A stretch of DNA of 64,000 bases from an uncultured candidate division Zixibacteria bacterium. GTDB lineage: Bacteria > Zixibacteria > MSB-5A5 > GN15 > FEB-12. A program made the position numbers and the translations under genes. The notes under the pieces were generated by a model. The model worked only from the letters and a program-made list of their open reading frames with translations. It had not been told where the DNA came from and did no database searches. Location of the stretch: the NCBI GenBank assembly GCA_963707365.1, contig CAVPPI010000004.1:341469-405468 (forward strand), read 5' to 3'. Of this stretch, positions 24,859-49,975 are shown one piece after another; position 1 is the first letter of the stretch, and every line of letters starts with the position of its first letter.

Positions 24859-24931
<73 letters not shown>

Positions 24932-28509: not shown

Positions 28510-28591
28510 GGTGGGGTTCCCGAGCGGCCAAAGGGAGCAGACTGTAAATCTGCCGGCGAAGCCTTCGGAGGTTCGAATCCTCCCCCCACCA
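28510..28591 (+). tRNA. tRNA-Tyr (GTA)
   Basis: Acceptor GGTGGGG/CCCCACC, anticodon loop CTGTAAA, long variable arm, T-arm GGAGG-TTCGAAT-CCTCC. Confidence 0.95.
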
Positions 28592-31119: not shown

Positions 31120-32493
31120 ATGACTGAACCGATAGAAAAGCAGCGCAAGGACTACACCGAAGGTTCAATCCTGACTTCCATCATGAAGATGGGCCTTCCA
31201 TCGATGTTCGGCTTTCTCAGCCAGAACATATATTCTCTTGTTGATACCTACTGGGTCTCCCGCTTGCCGGAGAAAGAAGCCGGTGTAGCGGCAGTTACTT
31301 TCTTCGCTACTATTCTGTGGGTGTTTTTCTCTTTTAATCAGCTTGTCGGACCGGGGTCGGTGGCGATCATATCACGTCGTTATGGTGAGAAGGACTATGA
31401 CAACACCGAGAAAGCAATCAAGGAGACGCTTTTCCTGAAGCTGTTTTTCGGGGTGTTGTTCGGTGTTGTCGGCTATTTCTTCGTCGACAAGATGCTTTTG
31501 TTGATGGGGGCTGAGGGACAGGCGTTGACCGAGGGAATCGCCTACGGTCAAGTCATGTTTGTCGGTATGGCGATAATGTTTGCGACTTATTCCATATATA
31601 CCGCCATGCGGGGAGTGGCCAATCCCCATATGGCGATGTACCTGATGTTAGCTTCGAATTTAATGAACATGATCCTCGACCCGATTCTAATGTTCGGCTA
31701 TTTTGGTCTTCCGGCTATGGGAATTCGCGGCGCTGCCGTAGCCTCGGTAGGAAGCTATGCTATCACTCTCGCCGTAGGGCTGCTTTTCTTCTATGGTGAC
31801 TTTACAAACGTAAAGCTCCATCTGAAAGGGAAAGTGGGTATGTCCGTAGCCTCAATGTGGAAGATGGTCAGGATAGGTGTTCCTGCGTGGCTGGGGGATA
31901 TGTCGTTTTCGGGGGCGCGCCTGATCATTACTCCTATGATAGCCGCCTTCGGTACGAATGTCGTCGCTGCTTATGGAGTAGGAAACCAGGTTTCGCATTT
32001 TGGCATAATGGTTCTGGTCGGAATCGGATTGGGGTTATCATCGCTGATTGGTCATAATCTCGGCGGCAAAAAGTTCGACAGAGCCAAGAAAACCGCAGAT
32101 CAGGCTATTTTGATCGGAATCGGAATTATGACGTTTTTTGGTGTCGTAACTTTCTTATTTGCCGGTCACATAATGAAGATGTTTTTCGACAATGCCGAGA
32201 CCATTGCCTACGGCGTTACCATGCTCAAGATATTAGCGCTTTGCTTCCCGTTTTTGGGGGTTTACATGATGGTGTCTGAAATTCACATGGGCGTCGGATT
32301 GAACTCTCCGGCGATGGTGGTGAATATCGTTCATTCCTGGGGGCTTGAAGTCTTGCCGATACTGGTGCTCACGCAGTTTCTGGGCTTCAATCAAGACGCA
32401 ATATGGTGGACAATTACCGGCGCCGGGGTATTGGCATCGATGGGCTTCTACATTTACTACCGGCGAGGCCGTTGGCTGACGGTTGAGGTTTGA
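31120..32493 (+). CDS. MATE-family efflux transporter
   Basis: 457 aa, 12 predicted TM helices, N-terminal ..GSILTSIMKMGLPSMFGFLSQNIYSLVDTYWVSRL.. typical of MATE. Confidence 0.9.
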   Translation: MTEPIEKQRKDYTEGSILTSIMKMGLPSMFGFLSQNIYSLVDTYWVSRLPEKEAGVAAVTFFATILWVFFSFNQLVGPGSVAIISRRYGEKDYDNTEKAIKETLFLKLFFGVLFGVVGYFFVDKMLLLMGAEGQALTEGIAYGQVMFVGMAIMFATYSIYTAMRGVANPHMAMYLMLASNLMNMILDPILMFGYFGLPAMGIRGAAVASVGSYAITLAVGLLFFYGDFTNVKLHLKGKVGMSVASMWKMVRIGVPAWLGDMSFSGARLIITPMIAAFGTNVVAAYGVGNQVSHFGIMVLVGIGLGLSSLIGHNLGGKKFDRAKKTADQAILIGIGIMTFFGVVTFLFAGHIMKMFFDNAETIAYGVTMLKILALCFPFLGVYMMVSEIHMGVGLNSPAMVVNIVHSWGLEVLPILVLTQFLGFNQDAIWWTITGAGVLASMGFYIYYRRGRWLTVEV

Positions 32494-32666
32494 CGGCGCT
32501 CTGGTCGGCGAAACTTCTTGACAATCCTCGAATTATCCGTTATTTAAGAGAAACAGTTATCAGGGCATTGTGTACCTGTCAGGTCTTCTGCGTGTGCTAT
32601 AAGCAGGCGCAGATATCTTATGTCATTCTCGGGAATGGGGTTTGCGAAAGGGGCGTCGGTTTCGTC

Positions 32667-34472
32667 ATGTCCGATAAAACAACAAGGTCCGACAATTTCG
32701 ACCTACCCGGTGGTAAGAATAGTAAGAATCAATCCCGCTCATCAGCGAAATCTGACAGTTCCTCATCAGACGTGCCTCTGGAGACGCTAAAATCCCAACA
32801 TCAGTTATTCCGCCTGGCTCTCGAATCGTTGCCTCACCCCTTCTGTCTGATTGATGCCGGCGACTTCTCTGTCAAGCTGGCTAACTCCGCGGCCGGTTTT
32901 GACATCGGAACTCGCAAATGTTACTCGGTGCTTCATGGCACGGAGAAACCGTGCGGAATGCTCGGTGAGCCCTGTCCGGTCGAAATAATAAGAAATACCA
33001 AGATGCCTGCGGTAGTCGAGCACATTCATCCCAACGAAAACGGGGAACCTCGCTACTTTGAAGTTCACGGCTATCCGGTCTTTGATGCTCATGGCGAAGT
33101 GGAGAGTATCATAGAATTTTCGCTTGATGTTACTCAGCGCCGTCAAACCGAAAACGCTTTGAGGGAATCGGAGGCAAAGTGGCGTTCGGTGGTGGAAAAT
33201 GCGCCGGACACTATCGTTGCTGTTGATATCGAGGGTAAGGTTCTTTTCTCTAATCGGAATCATCCTTGTGGCGGATCAGGCCTGGTTGATGGTGATTTGT
33301 GTCTTGACCACTTTGTCCCGGTTGAGCATCGCGAGATGGTCGCACGGATGGTAGCAGAAGTCTTTAAGACAGGTGAGCCTGCCAGCTTTGAGATATCATC
33401 GGTCAGGGAAGACGGTAGCCTGCGATGGTGCTCGACCAGATTGGGCCCGGTGTTCTATGATGAAAAGGTTTTTGCTGTCATATTAATGGCCAGAGACACC
33501 ACTGATCGCAAGGTGGCGGAGGAGGAGCTCATAGAGACTCAAGCCGATCTTGAGAGTCGAGTGGAAGAGCGCACGGCCGCTCTGGCTGAAATCAACGACG
33601 TACTTCGACATGAAATCAGGGAGAGGCGGCACGCCGAAGCAGCCCTGCGGGACTCGGAGGAACTTCACCGGGTAATTCTCGAGCATATTTCCGATGCCCT
33701 GTTTATCACGGATGAAAAGGGCGACTTCACATATATCAGCCCTATTGCCGGCGACATTTTCGGCTACACCCTTGATGAGCTACATCGATTGAAAAATATC
33801 CGTCGCATACTTGGTCATGACACTTTCGACGACGATGAACTGGCAAGACAAGGGGAAATGCAGAATATCCGAAAGAACGTGACCGACAAAGAAGGCCGCG
33901 AGTTGACCCTTCTTATCAATGTAAAGAGGACATTGATCGGCAATGGTACGATTCTGTATGCCTGCCGGGATATCTCCCGTCTCATTAGAGCCGAGAAGGC
34001 TCTGCATACCGTGAACGAAGAGTTACGGATAGAGCGCGAGTCACTGCGGCAGAAGAATGCCGCCTTAAAAGAGATCCTTGGTCAGATAGAACAGGAAAAA
34101 AAGAGGGTGGCCTCGCAGATTCATTTGAATATCAACAGGGTGGCTATTCCTATTCTCAATACTCTTGAACGAAAAGTATCATCCGACGGGGAATACTTCA
34201 TCACGCTGCTTAGAAGCTCCTTGTCTGAGATGACATCTCCTTTTATAAGTCGCCTGGAAAAGGACTTCTCCAATCTGACCCCCCGTGAACTGGAAATTTG
34301 TCACATGGTCAAGAACGGGTTTACCAGCAAGCAGATTTCGGCTGCGTTGAACAATTCTGTGGAGACAGTTCTGAAGCAGCGAAAGACTATTCGAAGGAAA
34401 CTTCAGATTACAAACAAGAAAGTCAACCTGGTTACATACCTTAAGTCATTGGAACAGAGCGTCATAGAATAA
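32667..34472 (+). CDS. PAS-domain sensor / LuxR-family (GerE HTH) transcriptional regulator
   Basis: Start moved to ATG 32667 because the upstream part of the track ORF overlaps the MATE gene and looks non-coding. It has PAS S-box-like segments (..ESEAKWRSVVENAPDTIVAVD.., ..SEELHRVILEHISDALFITD..), a coiled coil, and a C-terminal LTPRELEICHMVKNGFTSKQISAALNNSVETVLKQRKTIRRKL. Confidence 0.85.
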   Translation: MSDKTTRSDNFDLPGGKNSKNQSRSSAKSDSSSSDVPLETLKSQHQLFRLALESLPHPFCLIDAGDFSVKLANSAAGFDIGTRKCYSVLHGTEKPCGMLGEPCPVEIIRNTKMPAVVEHIHPNENGEPRYFEVHGYPVFDAHGEVESIIEFSLDVTQRRQTENALRESEAKWRSVVENAPDTIVAVDIEGKVLFSNRNHPCGGSGLVDGDLCLDHFVPVEHREMVARMVAEVFKTGEPASFEISSVREDGSLRWCSTRLGPVFYDEKVFAVILMARDTTDRKVAEEELIETQADLESRVEERTAALAEINDVLRHEIRERRHAEAALRDSEELHRVILEHISDALFITDEKGDFTYISPIAGDIFGYTLDELHRLKNIRRILGHDTFDDDELARQGEMQNIRKNVTDKEGRELTLLINVKRTLIGNGTILYACRDISRLIRAEKALHTVNEELRIERESLRQKNAALKEILGQIEQEKKRVASQIHLNINRVAIPILNTLERKVSSDGEYFITLLRSSLSEMTSPFISRLEKDFSNLTPRELEICHMVKNGFTSKQISAALNNSVETVLKQRKTIRRKLQITNKKVNLVTYLKSLEQSVIE

Positions 34473-34599
34473 AGGGCTGGTGGTTCTTGGGTGGAATCAG
34501 GGCAGAAAAGAACGCTATTTATTAGTGGGTATAATGCGTACCCAGTACGGGCCCAATAAAGCCCTCTTGATTAAAACCGGAAGAAGCAGATAATTATAT

Positions 34600-34992
34600 T
34601 AAAAGAGGAGAGGAGCGGTCCTATAAGTTGGGTTGAATCCGCACGAAATTTGTTGAGGATGGAGACTAAGCACTCACGGATATTGTGCTGATCCCGAACG
34701 AACAACAGCCGGGCCTTAAAACGGCGAGAAAGTCTGAAAAGACTTCCCGTCGCAGGGTACCCGCAACTAAGTAAAGCCAAAGGGGGTTGGAACAAGCCGG
34801 GAGTGAGGACGTGAGCCTTTGGGGGCGCAGGGATGCTCAGTCCTCCTCCCGTAATAGAAACTCCAACAGCTGCCATACATTTACCACGACCGGCCAAAGG
34901 GTAAATCGGAGTTCCCGATGGTCGGCCAATCGTGTACCAGAAGCACCTGAACTTTCAGTAAGGCGAACCTTAAAACCGAAGGAGTTTAGCCT
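34600..34992 (+). other. candidate structured RNA / long 5' leader of the ECF sigma gene (unclassified)
   Basis: No credible ORF in any frame. Helices read off the plus strand: 34730..34735/34740..34745 closing a GAAA tetraloop; a 17-bp irregular hairpin 34798..34851; 34786..34791/34862..34867 enclosing that hairpin; 34887..34891/34920..34924 plus 34905..34909/34915..34919. Confidence 0.35.
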
Positions 34993-35700
34993 ATGAGTCG
35001 GGCTCTGGAAAGCGATAATAGGATTACCCCAAGCTCATCTCTCAAGAAACCAATCAACCCAGCCAGGAAGGCATCGTGGCGAGTTCGGTCCAAGTCGGTT
35101 TCACCGGATCCGGCAGACACACATGATGACTCCAGGGCCAAACGACTGGTTTGGGAAATCCAGCAGGGAAACCAGCAGGCGTTTGCTGAATTGGTCGATC
35201 GCTACAACCGTCAGGTCGCGGCGCTCGCCTACAAGATGGTCGGCAATTACGACGAAGCCGCGGATATTGCCCAGATGGTTTTCGTGAAGATGTATCAAAA
35301 CGTCTGGCGTTACGACGACAGCAAGAAATTTTACAGTTGGCTATATCGTATCACCGTGAATGCTTCCATTGACTATATGCGCAAGCACAAACGTCACCGT
35401 CACGAGCCGCTGGAGGATTTCCATGAATCGGTGGAGACAACGCAGGAAGATCCGGAGGAGTCGTTTCGCCGTGGGCAGATTGCCGATTATTTGGTGAACG
35501 CAGCGGATGCTCTCAACGACAAGCAACGCTCGGTGTTTGTACTGCGTGACCTGGAGGGTTGCGAAATTGATGAGGTTGCGAATTCCCTGAATGTATCAGA
35601 AGCAACGGTACGGTGGTATTTACATCGGGCCAGAGTGAAAATCCGCAAGGAACTCCGGCGCGAATGTCCCCAATTACTCAGTTTTCTTGGCATAATTTAG
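34993..35700 (+). CDS. RNA polymerase sigma factor, ECF (sigma-70 group 4) family
   Basis: Region 2 ..AFAELVDRYNRQVAALAYKMVGNYDEAADIAQMVFVKMYQN..FYSWLYRITVNASIDYMRK.. and region 4 ..LNDKQRSVFVLRDLEGCEIDEVANSLNVSEATVRWYLHRARVKIRKEL. There is a ~50-aa basic/Ser-rich N-terminal extension. AAGGAG SD lies 8 nt upstream. Confidence 0.9.
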   Translation: MSRALESDNRITPSSSLKKPINPARKASWRVRSKSVSPDPADTHDDSRAKRLVWEIQQGNQQAFAELVDRYNRQVAALAYKMVGNYDEAADIAQMVFVKMYQNVWRYDDSKKFYSWLYRITVNASIDYMRKHKRHRHEPLEDFHESVETTQEDPEESFRRGQIADYLVNAADALNDKQRSVFVLRDLEGCEIDEVANSLNVSEATVRWYLHRARVKIRKELRRECPQLLSFLGII

Positions 35701-35833: not shown

Positions 35834-35872
35834 GTGCTGGAGAGTCTGTCATCTCTCCGGCACTTTTGTTTG
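35834..35872 (+). terminator. rho-independent terminator after the sigma gene
   Basis: 11-bp stem GTGCTGGAGAG (35834..35844) / CTCTCCGGCAC (35853..35863), then TTTTGTTTG. Confidence 0.8.
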
Positions 35873-35939
35873 CGGATTGTCTGAATAGCCCAACTTTCTT
35901 CTCGGTATTTAATAGAAATTAGAGTATCTTGACGGACCT

Positions 35940-37124
35940 ATGGCACTCGGCATCAAGAAAGTCTCCGTTTTTACAGTCACCTTCTCAGCGGTATCAGTCT
36001 ATATAGGTTTCTATGCCTGGCGGGTGATGTTCAACAATTTCGCTGTCGAGGTGTTTGAAGCATCTCCTACCGATGTCGGCGTTATTCAGGCCGCGCGTGA
36101 AATACCGGGGCTTTTGGCTTTTGGTGTCGGCGCCCTCGCTGTCTATTTCACTGAATCGAAAATTGCTGCTATTTCTATCGTGACTATCGGGCTGGGCTTG
36201 CTCCTGTGCGGACTTGCGCCCACGCTGGTAGTGCTTGGTTTGGCCACAGTTCTAATGTCTTTTGGATTTCACTATTTTGAACCGATGAATTCATCGCAAC
36301 TGCTAACTCTCTCAAAATCCGAGGAACTGGGGAGAGTGCAAGGGAAGCTGCTTTCGTTTGAAGCCATGGCCGGTCTTGTCGGCGCCGGGTTGGTTCTTCT
36401 GCTGACTTTCTTTCTGGACTTCAGGGTTACATTCTACCTGATAGGCGGATTGGTGATAGCGATCGGGCTGTACCTGACGCTCGCTCTGCCATCAAATCGC
36501 GGAAAGACCGAGCAGCGCAAGGTACGGATCAAGAAGAAATATTGGCTGTATTATACGCTCTCGTTTCTCAGGGGGTGCCGGCGACACATCTTCACGACGT
36601 TTGCTATATTTCTGCTTGTTAAGAATCACGGACTGAACATAACGGTAATCTCCACGCTGATGTTAGCCACCGCGGGTCTGACGATCTTCACTAACCGTAT
36701 TTTGGGCCATCTTTCCGACAGAATAGGGGAGAGGGCCGTGCTGGCGGGGTGTTCGTTTTTGCTGGTATTTATATTTACAGGATATGCTTATGTGACTTTC
36801 CTGCCGGTGCTGATAGCCTTCTATATCATCGACAATGTTCTGTTTGGTTCATCGATTGCGCTCAAGTCTTACCTGAAAAAGATTTCGACGCCCGAGGATT
36901 TAACCAATTGTCTGTCGTTTGGTATGACAGCGAACCATATCACGGCGGTTGTGATTCCTGTTGTAGGCGGTGTGCTCTGGGCTACGTTTGGGCACGAGGT
37001 TACTTTTATCGCCGGTGCGGCTATTGTATTTGTGGACCTGCTGTTTGCTCTGAAGGTGCCGCGGAACGGGAAGATTGTGGAATTCCAGGCGTCAGCAACT
37101 GTCAGCAACGAGACATCAGGCTGA
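35940..37124 (+). CDS. MFS transporter
   Basis: 394 aa, ~12 TM helices in two six-helix halves separated by a basic loop (..NRGKTEQRKVRIKKKYW..). Confidence 0.8.
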   Translation: MALGIKKVSVFTVTFSAVSVYIGFYAWRVMFNNFAVEVFEASPTDVGVIQAAREIPGLLAFGVGALAVYFTESKIAAISIVTIGLGLLLCGLAPTLVVLGLATVLMSFGFHYFEPMNSSQLLTLSKSEELGRVQGKLLSFEAMAGLVGAGLVLLLTFFLDFRVTFYLIGGLVIAIGLYLTLALPSNRGKTEQRKVRIKKKYWLYYTLSFLRGCRRHIFTTFAIFLLVKNHGLNITVISTLMLATAGLTIFTNRILGHLSDRIGERAVLAGCSFLLVFIFTGYAYVTFLPVLIAFYIIDNVLFGSSIALKSYLKKISTPEDLTNCLSFGMTANHITAVVIPVVGGVLWATFGHEVTFIAGAAIVFVDLLFALKVPRNGKIVEFQASATVSNETSG

Positions 37125-37175
37125 ACGCCTTCATGGTCCCTTGATTCTCGCTGCCTTATCTCGTATACTCCCACC

Positions 37176-37625
37176 ATGCCGGAAAAACCTTTAGTTTCAC
37201 TACGCGAAATAACGGAAGATACGGTCAATAGTATTCTGGCCCTTGAGGTGGCTGACAATCAAAAGGGTTTTGTGGCCACTAACGCCAAATCGTTGGCCCA
37301 GGCGCATTTCTCAAATAATGCCTGGTATCGCGGCATCTACGCCGATGACACTCCGGTCGGTTTCGTGATGCTCTATGTAGATACCGATAAGCGCGATTAC
37401 TTTCTATGGCGGTTCATGATCGATAAAAACCATCAGAAGAAAGATTACGGTCTTTGCGCTATGAAGCTGGTTATTGATTTCGTCCGGTCCCTTCCCGGGG
37501 CGACGGAGTTTGGCCTGAGTTTTGTGCCAGGGAATGGCGATCCATCGGGGTTTTACGCCAAGCTGGGTTTTGTCGAAACCGATGAGTGGGAGGGCGGCGA
37601 AAAGGTCATGCGATTGAACCTGTGA
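37176..37625 (+). CDS. GNAT-family N-acetyltransferase
   Basis: 149 aa. ..WRFMIDKNHQKKDYGLCAMKLVIDF.. (acetyl-CoA motif A region) and ..FYAKLGFVETDE.. Confidence 0.8.
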   Translation: MPEKPLVSLREITEDTVNSILALEVADNQKGFVATNAKSLAQAHFSNNAWYRGIYADDTPVGFVMLYVDTDKRDYFLWRFMIDKNHQKKDYGLCAMKLVIDFVRSLPGATEFGLSFVPGNGDPSGFYAKLGFVETDEWEGGEKVMRLNL

Positions 37626-37755
37626 GTCGCCTATCCGGAGATAGCCGGAATCGTTTTTCGGCCATGAAACAATCTGATATCCCCGCCGTAAGGTAGATGT
37701 TAATCAGCTTATATTAATCGTCTTCAACGGGTCCATCTAAAGCAGGGAAGGTACT

Positions 37756-40152
37756 ATGAAAGCGACAATACTCATTGTCATATTACTAATGCTCTCCACG
37801 GTTGCGGTGGCCGCGGACAGTAGTACTGGTGAAGGTCATATCAAGGGCCGTATCGAAGGTGTGATTGTCAATCAAAATGGCGCCCGACCGTTGGTTGGGG
37901 CGACGGTCTACCTGGTCGACAGGTTTGGCGGAGCGATTGCCGATGATGAGGGTCATTTTGTCATCAACAATCTTAGTCCCGGGACTTATGCTCTGCGTAT
38001 CAGCCACCTCGGTTTTGAGCCGTACCAGCTCGATAGCATCGTAGTAACCGGTGATGCGGCGGTGCAAGTTGAGATTGAGCTTGTGGAAAAGGCATATGAT
38101 ATCAAAGGCATCACTGTCACACCGGGCCGATTCTCTATCATGGGTACGGAATCGGCGGCCAGTCAGAGCCTTACGCGGAGGGAGTTGGAAACGACTCCTC
38201 AAGTAGGGGAAGATATATACCGCGCAGTAAGTCGTCTGCCCGGCGTGACGGCCGAGGATTTCTCCTCGCGCTTTTATGTGCGGGGGGGCGAATACGAGGA
38301 GGTGTTGGTCACCCTCGACGGGGTGCAGCTTTACGAGCCGTTTCATTTGAAGGAATTCAAAGGCGGCCTGTTCAGCGCTGTCGATGGCGCTGCCATTGAG
38401 AGTATTGAACTCATGACGGGCGGCTTTACCGCGCAGTATGGCGATCGGGCAAGTGGCGTCTTCAACATCACCAGCCATCACCCTCCCACCGGCAAGAGAA
38501 AAGTGTCAGCGGCAGTGAGTTTTATGAACGCCCGCGTTATGACCGAGGGCACCTTCGCCGAAAACCGCGGTTCGTGGATGGTATCGGGGCGAAGGGGTTA
38601 CCTCGATGTGCTTCTAAAAATAGCCGGCGAGGGGGAGAAACTGCGTCCGACTTACTACGATCTGATGGGAAAGGTCCAGTATCAGCTCAGCAACAAACAG
38701 ATTCTTTCGGCGCATGTGTTCCACGCCGGTGATCGTTTCAAAGTTATCGACAACGACGACAACGATGCTGATACGATTATCACATCGTACGACAATTCTT
38801 ATGCCTGGTTCAATCTCAAATCGCAGATGCATCAGCGACTCATGGGTCAGACCGTGCTGTCCGTTGGCGTGGTGAAACACAACCGCTACGGCTTTTCATA
38901 CTGGCGAAGTCAGCAGATTGAGGATGCCAGGGTCGACGACGGTCAGGAGTTTACTGTTCTGGGGGGGAAGTCGGACTGGGAGTTAGAGATTACGGATAAG
39001 CAGTTGATTCGGATGGGATTTGAAGCGCGGGCTTTGTCGGCCGACTACAATTACTTTGGCACCGATCAATTCTACTACTTCGGTGATGACGGCGTGGTCG
39101 AGTTGGACCGCATCGATACTATCAGTTACAGTCTGGAACCATCGGGTAACCAGATAGGCGCCTACGTGTCCTATCGAACGCAGGTCGGACCGCGGCTGAC
39201 TGTGGAATTCGGTGAACGTTTTGACCGTCACTCATATACCGGCGACGAGCATTTCTCGCCGCGCTTGAATTTCGCCTATCAAGTCGATGAATCCACAACC
39301 CTTCGCGCCGGCTGGGGTTATTTTTACCAGGCTCAGAGAATCGATGAGTTGTTGGTGGGGGACAACATGACGGAGTTCATGCCGGCGGAGAGGGCCGAAC
39401 ACAAAACTGTAGGTCTTGAGCACGATTTCGGCACCGGTGTGCGTATGCGCATAGAAGCATACCATAAGAAATATACCGACCTTAGACCCGAAGCGCGCAA
39501 TACTTTCGATGCCCTGAATGTCTTCCCGGAGTTTGAGGATGATCGCATTATTGTCTATCGTGACCACGCGACAGCCAAAGGTCTGGAGGTCTTCCTTAAA
39601 CGCGAGACGGGTAGCAAGTTTACCTGGTGGGCCAGCTACGCGTACGCGAAGGTCGAGGATAGCATTTCTCGCATCTTATATCGCAAAGTCTCCGGTCCCG
39701 ACGGTCTTGAGGTCACTTACAACGACAACTACCCCAATCCCCACGACCAGAGGCATACCGTATATCTGGATATGAGTTACAGGCCTACACTAAAATGGCA
39801 ATTCAACCTTGCCTGGAGCTATCACAGCGGATGGCCCTACACTGGCGTCTTTCTGGCTTCAGGCATTAACGAAAACGGTGATCCGGTCGTCTGGCTGAAC
39901 CAGGACGAATTGCTGGCGGAAAATTACCCGGACTACAACCGGATCGATTTTCGCATTAACCGATACTTCGACATCTGGGGCGGGCGTCTGACAGCCTTCC
40001 TTGAGTTGATCAATGTTCTGGGGAACGACAATGTTCGGGGATACGATTACGATATCCTATCGGGGCCCAGCGGACTGTATATCGAGCAGGACCCCGAAAA
40101 CGCTTTTGGAACGCTTCCCGTACTCGGGGTGAGTTTCAGTCTGAACATGTAG
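37756..40152 (+). CDS. TonB-dependent receptor with N-terminal CarboxypepD_reg domain
   Basis: Signal peptide. ..GATVYLVDRFGGAIADDEGHFVINNLSPGTYALRISHLGFEP.., a plug domain (..RAVSRLPGVTAE..RGGEYEEVLVTLDGVQLYEPFH..), and a ~550-aa barrel. Confidence 0.9.
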   Translation: MKATILIVILLMLSTVAVAADSSTGEGHIKGRIEGVIVNQNGARPLVGATVYLVDRFGGAIADDEGHFVINNLSPGTYALRISHLGFEPYQLDSIVVTGDAAVQVEIELVEKAYDIKGITVTPGRFSIMGTESAASQSLTRRELETTPQVGEDIYRAVSRLPGVTAEDFSSRFYVRGGEYEEVLVTLDGVQLYEPFHLKEFKGGLFSAVDGAAIESIELMTGGFTAQYGDRASGVFNITSHHPPTGKRKVSAAVSFMNARVMTEGTFAENRGSWMVSGRRGYLDVLLKIAGEGEKLRPTYYDLMGKVQYQLSNKQILSAHVFHAGDRFKVIDNDDNDADTIITSYDNSYAWFNLKSQMHQRLMGQTVLSVGVVKHNRYGFSYWRSQQIEDARVDDGQEFTVLGGKSDWELEITDKQLIRMGFEARALSADYNYFGTDQFYYFGDDGVVELDRIDTISYSLEPSGNQIGAYVSYRTQVGPRLTVEFGERFDRHSYTGDEHFSPRLNFAYQVDESTTLRAGWGYFYQAQRIDELLVGDNMTEFMPAERAEHKTVGLEHDFGTGVRMRIEAYHKKYTDLRPEARNTFDALNVFPEFEDDRIIVYRDHATAKGLEVFLKRETGSKFTWWASYAYAKVEDSISRILYRKVSGPDGLEVTYNDNYPNPHDQRHTVYLDMSYRPTLKWQFNLAWSYHSGWPYTGVFLASGINENGDPVVWLNQDELLAENYPDYNRIDFRINRYFDIWGGRLTAFLELINVLGNDNVRGYDYDILSGPSGLYIEQDPENAFGTLPVLGVSFSLNM

Positions 40153-41121: not shown

Positions 41122-41280
41122 GCACGTCATCCGACGTGGCCTGATTGTCCTGATTCGAATCATTCGGGGGGCGTTTGCCGCCCCCCGACTAATATCCCAA
41201 CCAATTCTCATTCAACCCTTTGTGTATACCGGAGTACATTCCCCGCGGCCGCCCGGGTTATCGTCGGTTTCTCCACATCA

Positions 41281-41302
41281 ATGTATACATTATTGTATAC
41301 AT
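41281..41302. promoter_or_regulatory. tandem palindromic boxes (candidate operator)
   Basis: ATGTATACAT (41281..41290) and TGTATACA (41294..41301), with starts 12 bp apart, ~150 bp upstream of the decahaem cytochrome start. Confidence 0.3.
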
Positions 41303-41451
41303 TGTGGCGATATTGGACCGCCGTGGTCATAAATTATGAGTTTTGTCCTTTTTGTTGTTGACATCGAAATGTGTTTTAGCCTTTTTTGTAACCAAAGATA
41401 TTATTTGGCTAATGCTGAGGAAACGTGTGTCTATCGAATTGGGGGTGATGC

Positions 41452-41760
41452 ATGGCGCCGTATATATCAGTGGCTCGTAAATGTGCCCTGTCTCTAATAG
41501 TCGTCTCCTGTTATTTCTTAATCTTCTGTTCCGCGTCGTATGCGGACCTGCCTGATGTGGCCGATGAAGATTGTGCCGCATGTCATGAAGATTTCGACAG
41601 GAAATTAACCTCAACCGCCCACAGGCTTTCCTCAACTATAGATAAACCTTCTATGGCAGTTGCTTGCGTGTCCTGTCACGAGGGCTCAACAGCACACCTG
41701 GACGATCCCGGCACGTGGGACAATCGGCAATCCGGCGGTAATGGAACCGGTCGGCGTTGA
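41452..41760 (+). CDS. MtrA/DmsE-like decahaem c-type cytochrome, N-terminal fragment (frame break ~41700..41757)
   Basis: Signal peptide (..CSASYA/DL) and haem motifs CAACH and CVSCH. The tail ..WDNRQSGGNGTGRR is out of frame. Confidence 0.8.
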   Translation: MAPYISVARKCALSLIVVSCYFLIFCSASYADLPDVADEDCAACHEDFDRKLTSTAHRLSSTIDKPSMAVACVSCHEGSTAHLDDPGTWDNRQSGGNGTGRR

Positions 41761-45245: not shown

Positions 45246-45334
45246 TGCCGGAGTGGTGGAATTGGTAGACACCAGGGACTTAAAATCCCTTGCTCCGTAA
45301 GGGGCGTGCCGGTTCGAGTCCGGCCTCCGGCACC
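45246..45334 (+). tRNA. tRNA-Leu (TAA)
   Basis: Acceptor GCCGGAG/CTCCGGC, anticodon stem AGGGA/TCCCT with loop CTTAAAA, long variable arm, T-arm GCCGG-TTCGAGT-CCGGC. The 3' CCA is encoded. Confidence 0.95.
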
Positions 45335-49902: not shown

Positions 49903-49975
49903 GCCACCGTAGCTCAGATGGTAGAGCAGCTGATTCGTAATCAGCAGGTCAGCGGTTCGATCCCGCTCGGTGGCT
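49903..49975 (+). tRNA. tRNA-Thr (CGT)
   Basis: Acceptor GCCACCG/CGGTGGC, anticodon stem GCTGA/TCAGC with loop TTCGTAA, T-arm AGCGG-TTCGATC-CCGCT. Confidence 0.95.

What the first reader, a model, noticed from the sequence alone, without database searches (positions are those of the whole stretch)
34473..34992. 520-nt non-coding gap packed with nested helices upstream of an ECF sigma gene
Seen in sequence: this is the largest gene-free stretch in the window, and all three forward frames hit stops within ~30 codons. On the plus strand I can pair the following by hand. (a) 34730..34735 AAGTCT with 34740..34745 AGACTT, closing a GAAA tetraloop and extended by ACGG 34721..34724 / CCGT 34747..34750. 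(b) GGGAG-t-GAGGAC 34799..34810 with GTCCTCCTCCC 34840..34850, continuing into TGAGC 34812..34816 / GCTCA 34835..34839, about 17 bp in all. (c) GTTGGA 34786..34791 with TCCAAC 34862..34867, enclosing (b). (d) CGACC 34887..34891 / GGTCG 34920..34924 enclosing ATCGG 34905..34909 / CCGAT 34915..34919. GCCAAAGGG occurs twice (34776..34784 and 34893..34901). A purine tract GAGGAGAGGAG (34605..34615) could compete with 34799..34810 for the pyrimidine strand 34840..34850. Inference: this is a structured RNA, either a long cis-regulatory leader of the sigma gene or an independent ncRNA. I could not place it in any class I know.
Basis: partly seen in the sequence, partly recalled or inferred. Interest (0 to 1): 0.65.

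Follow-up and report, generated by a model that had tools for sequence, protein, structure and literature searches.

The report
Structured leader RNA of ECF sigma
The 520-base gap is the promoter plus a roughly 390-base structured leader of a sigma-factor mRNA, conserved in one group of uncultured Zixibacteria and matching no catalogued RNA family; part of it pairs with the first codons of the gene and probably keeps it untranslated until some unknown signal arrives.

Summary
Eleven orthologous loci (Zixibacteria MAGs and metagenome contigs, about 7 lineages) keep the same 420-640 nt gap between a PAS-LuxR regulator and an ECF sigma gene.

- **Upstream quarter, DNA signals:** a palindrome and a conserved TTGATT-N16/17-GATAAT promoter. 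I infer a transcription start near 34601.
- **Hairpin (b), 34798-34851:** well supported. 19 pairs, 93.6% paired, 6 pairs with compensatory changes, 0 of 500 shuffles as good.
- **Other reader features:** helices (c) and (d) recur as lineage-specific helices at the same positions. Hairpin (a) and the repeated 9-mer are not conserved.
- **New element:** an invariant block, CCAGAAGCACCUGAAC (34937-34952), is more conserved than any part of the sigma ORF. It pairs with codons 2-6 (34998-35008) and encloses the SD and AUG. Two pairs show compensatory changes, and folding predicts the helix in 9 of 11 sequences.

No Rfam family matches, there is no conserved ORF, and there is no terminator inside the leader.

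My best reading is a cis-acting translational-control leader that works like the rpoS leader, with an unknown trigger. It is a new RNA family working by a known principle, with narrow distribution.

The parts
32490..34472 (+). Upstream neighbour: a PAS-PAS-LuxR(GerE) transcription regulator. Its position next to the sigma gene is conserved, so it is the candidate activator of the leader promoter.
   Evidence: Pfam and NCBIfam hits. A PAS/GerE gene lies upstream of the leader in L052 and L055.
34527..34543 (.). Palindrome GGGTAT-N5-(A)TACCC centred about 66 bp upstream of the inferred start. Probably a DNA binding site for a dimeric regulator.
   Evidence: Conserved in 10 loci. The 5' arm degenerates in L001/L050 with no compensating change in the 3' arm, which fits a DNA site rather than an RNA helix. 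It is the only close match in the 64 kb window.
34567..34594 (+). Sigma-70-type promoter: -35 TTGATT (34567-72), a 16-nt spacer, -10 GATAAT (34589-94). The inferred transcription start is near 34601.
   Evidence: Consensus scan hit. The same hexamers with a 16-17 nt spacer of variable sequence occur in 9 of 10 orthologous loci, and the scan flags them in L053 and L001. The start site itself is inferred, not mapped.
34601..34664 (+). Conserved 5' segment of the leader: the purine tract (window GAGGAGAGGAG 34605-15; consensus AAGACAAGAGAGGUC) and GAGGAUGGAG (34655-64). It appears to be single-stranded.
   Evidence: Sequence blocks are conserved. Pairing with the P1 3' strand is no better within a species than across species.
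34665..34775 (+).
   Evidence: About 0-25 nt in L052/L053/L055/L056 and up to about 175 nt in L003, with no alignable sequence. The hairpin is present in the window's MFE fold.
34782..34798 (+). Conserved 5' flank of P1, GGGGGUUGGAACAAGCC. Positions 34786-91 form helix (c)/P0 with 34862-67.
   Evidence: GAACAAGCCGGGAG is identical in 8 of 11 sequences. The closing helix is kept in L049 (GUUGG/CCAAC). Other lineages have different closing helices, such as L003 AACAGCC/GGCUGUU.
34798..34851 (+).
   Evidence: It folds in all 11 sequences at -24.6 to -35.6 kcal/mol. 19 pairs, 93.6% of cells paired, 6 pairs with changes on both sides, 0/500 shuffles as high, and slid controls at 40-56%. The covariance model scores 68-99 bits on the + strand against 12-18 on the - strand.
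34852..34884 (+). Joining region J, including the 3' arm of helix (c) at 34862-67. In most relatives it reads AAGGAGAACCUUUGA...AGCC.
   Evidence: Pairing of J with the P1 loop (AACCUU/AAGGUU) is possible, but one-sided changes break it.
34885..34934 (+). The outer stem is CACGA 34885-89 / UCGUG 34930-34.
   Evidence: Seen in the MFE folds. Every lineage has a hairpin of different sequence at this position, for example 18 bp in L003 and UAGCGCC/GGCGCUA in L053.
34937..34952 (+). Block C, CCAGAAGCACCUGAAC: the invariant leader element and 5' strand of the helix that occludes the start region.
   Evidence: CAGAAGCACCTG is identical in all 11 sequences. The longest invariant run anywhere in the sigma ORF is 6 nt. 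The block pairs with 34998-35008.
34980..34995 (+). Shine-Dalgarno AGGAG (34980-84) and start codon ATG (34993-95). Both lie inside the loop closed by block C.
   Evidence: The SD is conserved at -12 or -11 in all 11 sequences, as is the N-terminus MSQAL/MSRAL.
34998..35008 (+). Codons 2-6 of the sigma ORF (UCGGGCUCUGG): the 3' strand of the occluding helix.
   Evidence: 11 pairs, 93.4% of cells paired, C-G to U-A in L052/L056, A-U to G-C in L003, U-A to U.G in 3 sequences. Pair probabilities reach 0.9-1.0 for one or both halves of the helix in full-leader ensembles for 9 of 11 sequences. Duplex energy is -9.6 to -14.8 kcal/mol, in the best 0-12% of 217 control windows of the same ORF.
34993..35700 (+). 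ECF sigma factor gene (235 aa). It has a basic extension of about 45 aa at the N-terminus and no anti-sigma gene next to it.
   Evidence: The next gene is an MFS transporter in the window, L049 and L054.

Best explanation
The gap is the control region of a monocistronic ECF sigma-factor mRNA.

**DNA-level part (about 34527-34594).** This stretch holds a palindrome and a sigma-70-type promoter. The palindrome is probably bound by the adjacent PAS-LuxR regulator. Transcription would start near 34601 and give a 5' leader of about 390 nt.

**The leader, in order:**
- a conserved, apparently unstructured purine-rich 5' segment
- a lineage-variable insert
- a core made of the covarying hairpin P1 with a G-rich loop, a closing helix and the variable hairpin P3
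- the invariant 16-nt block C

**Proposed mechanism.** Block C pairs with codons 2-6 of the sigma ORF. This closes a stem around the Shine-Dalgarno sequence and the AUG. Nucleotides +5 to +15 lie inside the footprint of an initiating ribosome, so this should hold the mRNA in a poorly translated state. I propose that the sigma factor, which has no anti-sigma partner, is gated at translation. A factor that captures block C, or that refolds the upstream conserved core, would open the start region. That factor could be a small RNA, a protein or a small ligand. The rpoS leader is opened by small RNAs in this way.

**Shown:** conservation, covariation of P1 and of the block C helix, thermodynamic preference, strand specificity, and absence from Rfam.

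**Inferred:** the start site, the repressive effect on translation, and the existence and nature of the trigger.
For: **Conservation**
- Orthologous loci keep the gap, with nhmmer E-values of 2e-32 to 4e-8.
- The promoter hexamers are conserved while the spacer varies.
- Block C has a 12-nt run identical in all 11 sequences. ORF DNA identity is only 61-74%, and its longest invariant run is 6 nt.

**Structure**
- P1 has 6 covarying pairs and 0/500 shuffles as good. Changes to G.U occur that would be A.C mismatches on the other strand, and the covariance model scores far higher on the + strand.
- The helix between block C and codons 2-6 is 93.4% paired, has 2 pairs with double changes and 3 U.G cells, and slid controls give 10-48%.
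- That helix is the local MFE in 9 of 11 sequences. At least one half of the helix has ensemble probability around 0.9-1.0 in 9 of 11 sequences.
- Its duplex energy ranks in the top few percent of control windows.

**Leader rather than separate gene**
- No terminator-like site lies inside the leader.
- Hairpin plus T-run terminators follow the sigma ORF in relatives.
- There is no conserved ORF.
- The element occurs once per locus, always with this gene.
Against: - There are no transcript data, so the start site and co-transcription are inferred.
- Only about 7 independent lineages from one clade are available.
- The block C helix was found by inspecting these same sequences, which inflates the comparison with slid controls.
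- In L054, L001/L050 and L003 the helix uses a shifted register. In L003 and L054 the ensemble does not favour it.
- Conservation of the ORF strand could partly reflect the conserved peptide MSQAL.
- RNAalifold prefers a different local pairing, SD GGAGUC with GGCUCU of the ORF. Block C could therefore be an activator rather than a repressor.
- The conserved 5' segment, the flank, J and the G-rich loop have no demonstrated partner.
- No complementary small RNA exists in the 64 kb window.
Confidence: 0.6

Rival explanations
1. A riboswitch-like sensor. [quoted passage not shown] Binding would decide whether block C is free to close the start region. This is a special case of the leader model in which the trigger is a ligand.
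For: The pattern is that of an aptamer: highly conserved unpaired nucleotides flank helices that covary or vary freely in sequence and length. Translation-level control is implied by the block C helix. The neighbouring genes are transporters: an MFS resembling siderophore exporters, and a TonB-dependent receptor.
Against: No mutually exclusive alternative pairing passed a test. Loop against block C gives a mean z of only -1.1. J against the loop is broken by one-sided changes. The 5' tract against the P1 strand shows no own-versus-cross difference. The element is found in front of a single gene family in a single clade, whereas riboswitches usually control several genes of a pathway. There is no ligand candidate.
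Confidence: 0.15
2. DNA-level signals only. The conserved blocks would be promoters and protein-binding sites, with block C as an operator or promoter element and the P1 flank GGAACA as an ECF -35 box. The helices would be incidental.
For: The upstream quarter clearly looks like DNA signals. The window has GGAAC-N16-CGT at 34789-34812, the classic ECF promoter geometry. Paralogous sigma genes carry GGGAAC-N17-GTT motifs.
Against: - Compensatory and G.U-preserving changes in P1 and in the block C helix are RNA signatures, and they are strand-specific.
- The CGT is already lost in the closest relative L049, and the spacing does not fit in the others.
- A promoter with block C as its -35 box would start transcription inside the conserved SD.
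- The two arms of the block C helix are 43-58 nt apart with variable spacing, which is not the geometry of a dimer site.
Confidence: 0.1
3. An independent small RNA gene, transcribed from the conserved promoter and acting in trans, that merely lies upstream of the sigma gene.
For: There is a conserved promoter and a conserved structured core. Many purine-rich GGA/GGAG motifs are present and could titrate an RNA-binding protein.
Against: No terminator-like hairpin with a T-run lies before the ORF, although such terminators occur after the ORF in relatives. The most conserved block pairs with the downstream ORF and covaries with it. The element always accompanies this gene.
Confidence: 0.07
4. 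An RNA thermometer. The imperfect helix around the start region would melt on temperature upshift and turn on a stress sigma factor, as in rpoH.
For: The start region is enclosed by an imperfect helix with bulges.
Against: The predicted pairing probability of +5..+15 with block C stays at 0.85 or higher up to 65 C in the window, L049, L052 and L055, and it changes little in the others. A thermometer would not need 300 nt of additional conserved leader.
Confidence: 0.05

Closest known systems
rpoS mRNA leader of Escherichia coli (from my own knowledge, not tested here)
   Same: It is a long 5' leader on a sigma-factor mRNA. An upstream leader segment pairs with the translation initiation region and keeps it closed. 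Regulation is expected from whatever releases that segment.
   Different: There is no sequence or family relationship. Here the partner is codons 2-6 rather than the SD/AUG itself. The activators are unknown: no Hfq-dependent small RNA has been identified. The gene is an ECF sigma in Zixibacteria, and the leader carries an extra conserved core (P1, P3).
rpoH (sigma-32) mRNA thermosensor (from my own knowledge)
   Same: In both, the nucleotides of a sigma-factor mRNA just downstream of the AUG are held in base pairs that limit initiation.
   Different: In rpoH the partner lies inside the coding region and the structure melts at heat-shock temperatures. Here the partner is in the 5' UTR, and predicted melting is above 55-65 C.
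Translational riboswitches (aptamer plus an expression platform that sequesters the RBS)
   Same: Both have conserved unpaired nucleotides around covarying or variable helices, upstream of a start region that can be closed by a leader segment.
   Different: There is no ligand, no demonstrated alternative pairing, and no match to any of the 4227 Rfam families. The element sits in front of a single gene family.
Leaders of the paralogous short ECF sigma genes in the same genomes (L004-L008, L057, L058)
   Same: Same sigma family (59-70% identity) and the same genomes.
   Different: Their leaders are short (about 220-300 nt gaps). They carry GGGAAC-N17-GTT ECF-type promoter motifs and have none of the blocks, P1 or block C.

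Membership tests
Any Rfam 15 family (4227 covariance models) | Score at or above the family's gathering threshold | tested here: not met
   The whole window matches only 4 tRNAs. For 34300-35200 at E <= 10 there are only two chance-level hits of 11 bits against thresholds of 38-40.
rpoS-type inhibitory leader (functional class) | A leader segment base-pairs with the translation initiation region | tested here: met
   Block C 34937-52 pairs with 34998-35008: 93.4% paired, 2 covarying pairs, MFE in 9/11, duplex rank in the top few percent.
rpoS-type inhibitory leader (functional class) | A long 5' UTR transcribed as part of the sigma mRNA | tested here: inconclusive
   There is a conserved -35/-10 about 390 nt upstream and no terminator in between, but no transcript mapping.
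rpoS-type inhibitory leader (functional class) | Opened by trans-acting small RNAs with Hfq | not testable with these tools
   No complement of block C beyond chance in the 64 kb window. The rest of the genome was not available.
Riboswitch | Conserved core with covarying helices and conserved unpaired nucleotides | tested here: met
Riboswitch | Mutually exclusive alternative pairings linking the sensor to the start region | tested here: inconclusive
   Loop against block C is complementary in all sequences but not better than shuffled loops, except in L003. Pairing of J with the loop is not supported.
Riboswitch | Specific ligand binding | not testable with these tools
   Needs in-line probing or an equivalent assay.
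RNA thermometer | The helix at the start region melts in the physiological temperature range | tested here: not met
   Predicted pairing stays at 0.85 or higher at 65 C in 4 of 8 sequences and is nearly flat in the rest. This is a prediction only.
Transcription attenuator / intrinsic terminator | G+C-rich hairpin followed by a U-run inside the leader | tested here: not met
   0 terminator-like sites in 34300-35200. P1 is followed by A-rich sequence, not U-rich.
Sigma-70-type promoter | -35 and -10 hexamers 16-18 bp apart, conserved across orthologues while the spacer varies | tested here: met
   TTGAT(T/A)-N16/17-GATAAT in 9 of 10 loci. L003 deviates.
Autoregulated ECF promoter inside the leader | GGAAC-N16/17-CGT/GTT conserved across orthologues | tested here: not met
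   Present only in the window (34789-34812). It is lost in L049, and the spacing does not fit in the others.
Small protein gene | An ORF conserved in frame and in sequence across relatives | tested here: not met
   No Pfam hit. The minus-strand ORFs of the window and L001 are not similar, E = 0.5. Indels of 1-2 nt occur inside the conserved blocks.

The most novel reading that the evidence does not exclude
The leader is a new class of RNA sensor that takes the place of an anti-sigma factor. Its conserved core (G-rich P1 loop, flank, J, P3) would bind a metabolite, metal or dedicated protein directly, and so decide whether block C locks the first codons of the ECF sigma mRNA. The signal might relate to the neighbouring MFS exporter and TonB-receptor genes. 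As far as my literature searches show, that would be the first riboswitch-like gate on an ECF sigma factor.
Probability: 0.18. Interest if true: 0.75.

Novelty: new variant of a known kind. Interest (0 to 1): 0.5.

Why it matters
ECF sigma factors are normally held in check by anti-sigma proteins. This one has none beside it. Instead it carries a leader whose most conserved 12 nucleotides are better preserved than any part of the protein-coding sequence.

If the model is right, a whole branch of an uncultured phylum controls a stress or uptake regulon by RNA structure at the translation step. It would also give a compact, testable element: a 16-nt block set against 11 nt of ORF.

The finding adds a candidate family to the catalogue of structured bacterial leaders from a phylum with almost no RNA annotation. 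Its reach is limited by narrow distribution and the missing trigger.

Tried and rejected
1. **Rfam**, at gathering thresholds and at E <= 10: nothing.
2. **Metagenome scan** with AGCCGGGAG-N(125-155)-CAGAAGCACCTG: 31 hits. All are chance matches inside unrelated sequence with no flanking similarity.
3. **Viral-contig scan** with block C: 14 hits, none with P1.
own-species and cross-species duplex energies are equal, so I reject it as evidence, though not as a possibility.
5. **Kissing interaction between the P1 loop and block C:** complementary in every sequence but no better than shuffled G-rich loops (mean z -1.1). Only L003 stands out.
6. **Pseudoknot J AACCUU with loop AAGGUU:** 6 bp in four sequences, but loop changes are not compensated.
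7. **Structure in the 5' conserved segment:** no consensus and no consistent fold.
8. **uORF or leader peptide at GAGGAUGG, or after AAGGAG:** the start codon is lost in L003 and L049, and the frames are not kept (read).
9. **Block C as a sigma-54 or ECF promoter element:** the geometry is incompatible with the conserved SD, and the required GG/GC positions are absent (read).
10. **Thermometer:** the helix is predicted stable to above 55-65 C.
11. **Fur box at GATAAT:** only a half-site match by eye, so I did not pursue it.
12. **More orthologues:** the look-ups by protein are exhausted (12 of 12). Two contigs could not be fetched because the sample files are too large.

Full report
**Setting**

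The window comes from a Zixibacteria-like genome. The sigma protein's best relatives are in Candidatus Zixiibacteriota MAG chromosomes. The gap 34473-34992 lies between a PAS-PAS-LuxR(GerE) regulator (32490-34472) and an ECF sigma gene (34993-35700). An MFS transporter, a GNAT acetyltransferase and a TonB-dependent receptor follow, all on the + strand. No anti-sigma gene is adjacent. In the relatives L049 and L054 the MFS gene follows the sigma gene after only 120-130 nt.

**Checking the observation**

Every helix, the repeated 9-mer and the purine tract are at the coordinates given. Helices (a) to (d) appear in the minimum-free-energy fold of the + strand. Several points need correction:
- The energy of the whole gap is only modestly better than shuffles, z = -2.2 on + and -1.96 on -.
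- The forward frames are less closed than stated. Open runs reach 40, 39 and 72 codons, and a 127-codon run lies on the minus strand.
- These ORFs have no Pfam match, and the minus-strand ORFs of the window and L001 are unrelated. Nothing points to a protein.
- The gap is third in a crude ORF map. The two larger stretches are, respectively, covered by a 363-aa ORF and occupied only by ORFs of about 100 aa.

**Relatives**

I assembled eleven distinct leaders, about seven lineages, plus near-duplicates L051 and L073.
- A scan of one genome per species with the sigma protein gave three Zixibacteria chromosomes with the same gap: L001, L002, L003.
- Look-ups of close homologues added L049, L050, L052-L056 and L073.
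- nhmmer with the window's gap finds all of them, at E from 2e-32 to 4e-8.
- Where the contig reaches far enough and Pfam hits are on record, the upstream gene is again a PAS/GerE regulator.
- More distant sigma paralogues in the same genomes are about 210 aa and lack the N-terminal extension; two of them (L057, L058) lie next to a P-type ATPase. Their leaders are short and unrelated, with GGGAAC-N17-GTT motifs.
- A metagenome scan and a viral-contig scan with DNA patterns returned only chance matches.

**Anatomy from the alignment**

1. *Promoter region, 34527-34594.* It contains a palindrome GGGTAT-N5-ATACCC, a C-run/AT/C-run segment, and TTGAT(T/A)-N16/17-GATAAT. The hexamers are kept in 9 of 10 loci while the spacer sequence varies. 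The consensus scan flags the site in the window, L053 and L001. The 5' arm of the palindrome degenerates in L001/L050 without compensation, as expected for a DNA site. I infer a start near 34601 and a leader of about 390 nt.
2. *Conserved 5' segment.* It holds the purine tract and GAGGAUGGAG, with no consistent fold.
3. *Variable segment.* Its length runs from about 0 to 175 nt, and it contains hairpin (a).
5. *Block C,* CCAGAAGCACCUGAAC.
6. *Start region.* The SD and AUG, with a conserved N-terminus MSQAL.

**P1 is a real RNA hairpin**

- It folds in all 11 sequences at -24.6 to -35.6 kcal/mol.
- On a MAFFT alignment with my 19-pair structure, 93.6% of cells pair.
- 6 pairs have changes on both sides (15 cells), and 20 further pair types occur.
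- None of 500 shuffles reaches the observed values, and slid controls give 40-56%.
- Several changes go to G.U, which would be A.C on the other strand.
- The covariance model scores 68-99 bits on + against 12-18 on -.
- Helix (c) is kept in L049. Other lineages replace it with different closing helices. This is suggestive, but the helices cannot be aligned.

**Block C and the start of the ORF**

The 12-nt run CAGAAGCACCTG is identical in all 11 sequences. The sigma ORFs are 61-74% identical to the window, and their longest invariant run is 6 nt.

A scan for complementary stretches showed that block C pairs with ORF nucleotides +5 to +15. In the window these are CCAGA/UCUGG, G-C and CCUGA/UCGGG. 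The counts on alignment A5 are:
- 11 pairs, 93.4% of cells paired
- C-G to U-A in L052/L056
- A-U to G-C in L003
- U-A to U.G in three sequences
- slid controls at 10-48%

Local folding gives this helix as the minimum-energy structure in 9 of 11 sequences. In full-leader ensembles the pairs of at least one half of the helix have probabilities around 0.9-1.0 in 9 of 11 sequences. The duplex energy is -9.6 to -14.8 kcal/mol, and 0-27 of 217 control windows from the same ORF do as well, typically 1-4.

The caveats are:
- I derived the helix from these same sequences.
- L001/L050, L054 and L003 use shifted registers.
- The ORF strand is also constrained by the peptide.
- RNAalifold prefers a small hairpin in which the SD pairs with GGCUCU. 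The sign of regulation is therefore not settled.

**What did not hold up**

- The G-rich loop of P1 can pair with block C in every sequence, but no better than shuffled loops, except in L003.
- A pseudoknot between J and the loop is not compensated.
- The helix is predicted to persist above 55-65 C, which argues against a thermometer.
- No terminator-like site lies in the leader, while hairpin plus T-run terminators follow the ORF in relatives. That argues against a separate small RNA or an attenuator.
- The GGAAC-N16-CGT motif in the window's P1 flank is not conserved, even in L049.

**Interpretation**

The best-supported reading is a cis-acting leader that controls translation of a sigma factor lacking an anti-sigma partner. 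Transcription would be driven from a conserved promoter, probably under the neighbouring PAS-LuxR regulator. It works like the rpoS leader, a comparison drawn from my own knowledge and not tested here. It is not a member of any described family, and two literature searches found no precedent for a structured leader on an ECF sigma gene.

The function of the conserved core upstream of block C is unknown. It is the natural place for a sensor, whether for a ligand, a protein or a small RNA.

I rate the finding as a new RNA family using a known principle. The structural evidence is solid. There is no experimental support, and the distribution is narrow.

Noticed in passing
window 35839-35872: A hairpin GGAGAG-N8-CTCTCC followed by GGCACTTTTGTTTG lies just after the sigma ORF. 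Clearer hairpin plus T-run terminators sit at the same place in L053, L056, L001 and L054. The sigma gene therefore looks monocistronic. The scan tool did not flag them because of its limits on loop length and tail position.
   Followed up: partly
window 35925-35942; also L002, L003, L053, L054, L056 just upstream of the MFS start: A conserved motif (C)TTATCTTTAGCGGAYYATGGC sits directly against the MFS start codon, with no Shine-Dalgarno sequence. It resembles the Bacteroidetes -7 promoter box TAnnTTTG (from my own knowledge), which would imply a leaderless or very short-leader mRNA.
   Followed up: no
L004-L008, about 60-90 nt upstream of the paralogous short sigma genes: GGGAAC-N17-GTT motifs are shared by the paralogues' leaders. 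They are probably autoregulated ECF promoters, and they would define the promoter specificity of this sigma family.
   Followed up: no
window 34993-35130: The orthologues of this sigma carry a basic, Ser/Lys/Arg-rich N-terminal extension of about 45 residues that begins MSQAL. It is absent from the paralogues of about 210 aa. Only its first five residues are conserved, and these are the codons that pair with block C.
   Followed up: partly
window 35940-40152: The MFS transporter weakly resembles the siderophore exporters EntS and MxcK. A GNAT acetyltransferase and a TonB-dependent receptor with a CarboxypepD_reg domain follow it. This may be an iron or siderophore regulon of the sigma factor.
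   Followed up: no
window 41122-41659: A second ORF-poor stretch of 538 nt, containing only overlapping ORFs of about 100 aa on both strands. I did not examine it further.
   Followed up: no
window 24859-24931, 28510-28591, 45247-45332, 49903-49975: Four tRNA genes. These are the only Rfam matches in the window.
   Followed up: no
window 34552-34566 and homologues: A conserved segment of C-run, ATAAT, C-run (consensus GGCCCCnATAATGCCCCC) lies between the palindrome and the -35 box. It contains a perfect TATAAT in four relatives but has no conserved -35 partner. It could be an UP-like element, a second operator or a second promoter.
   Followed up: partly
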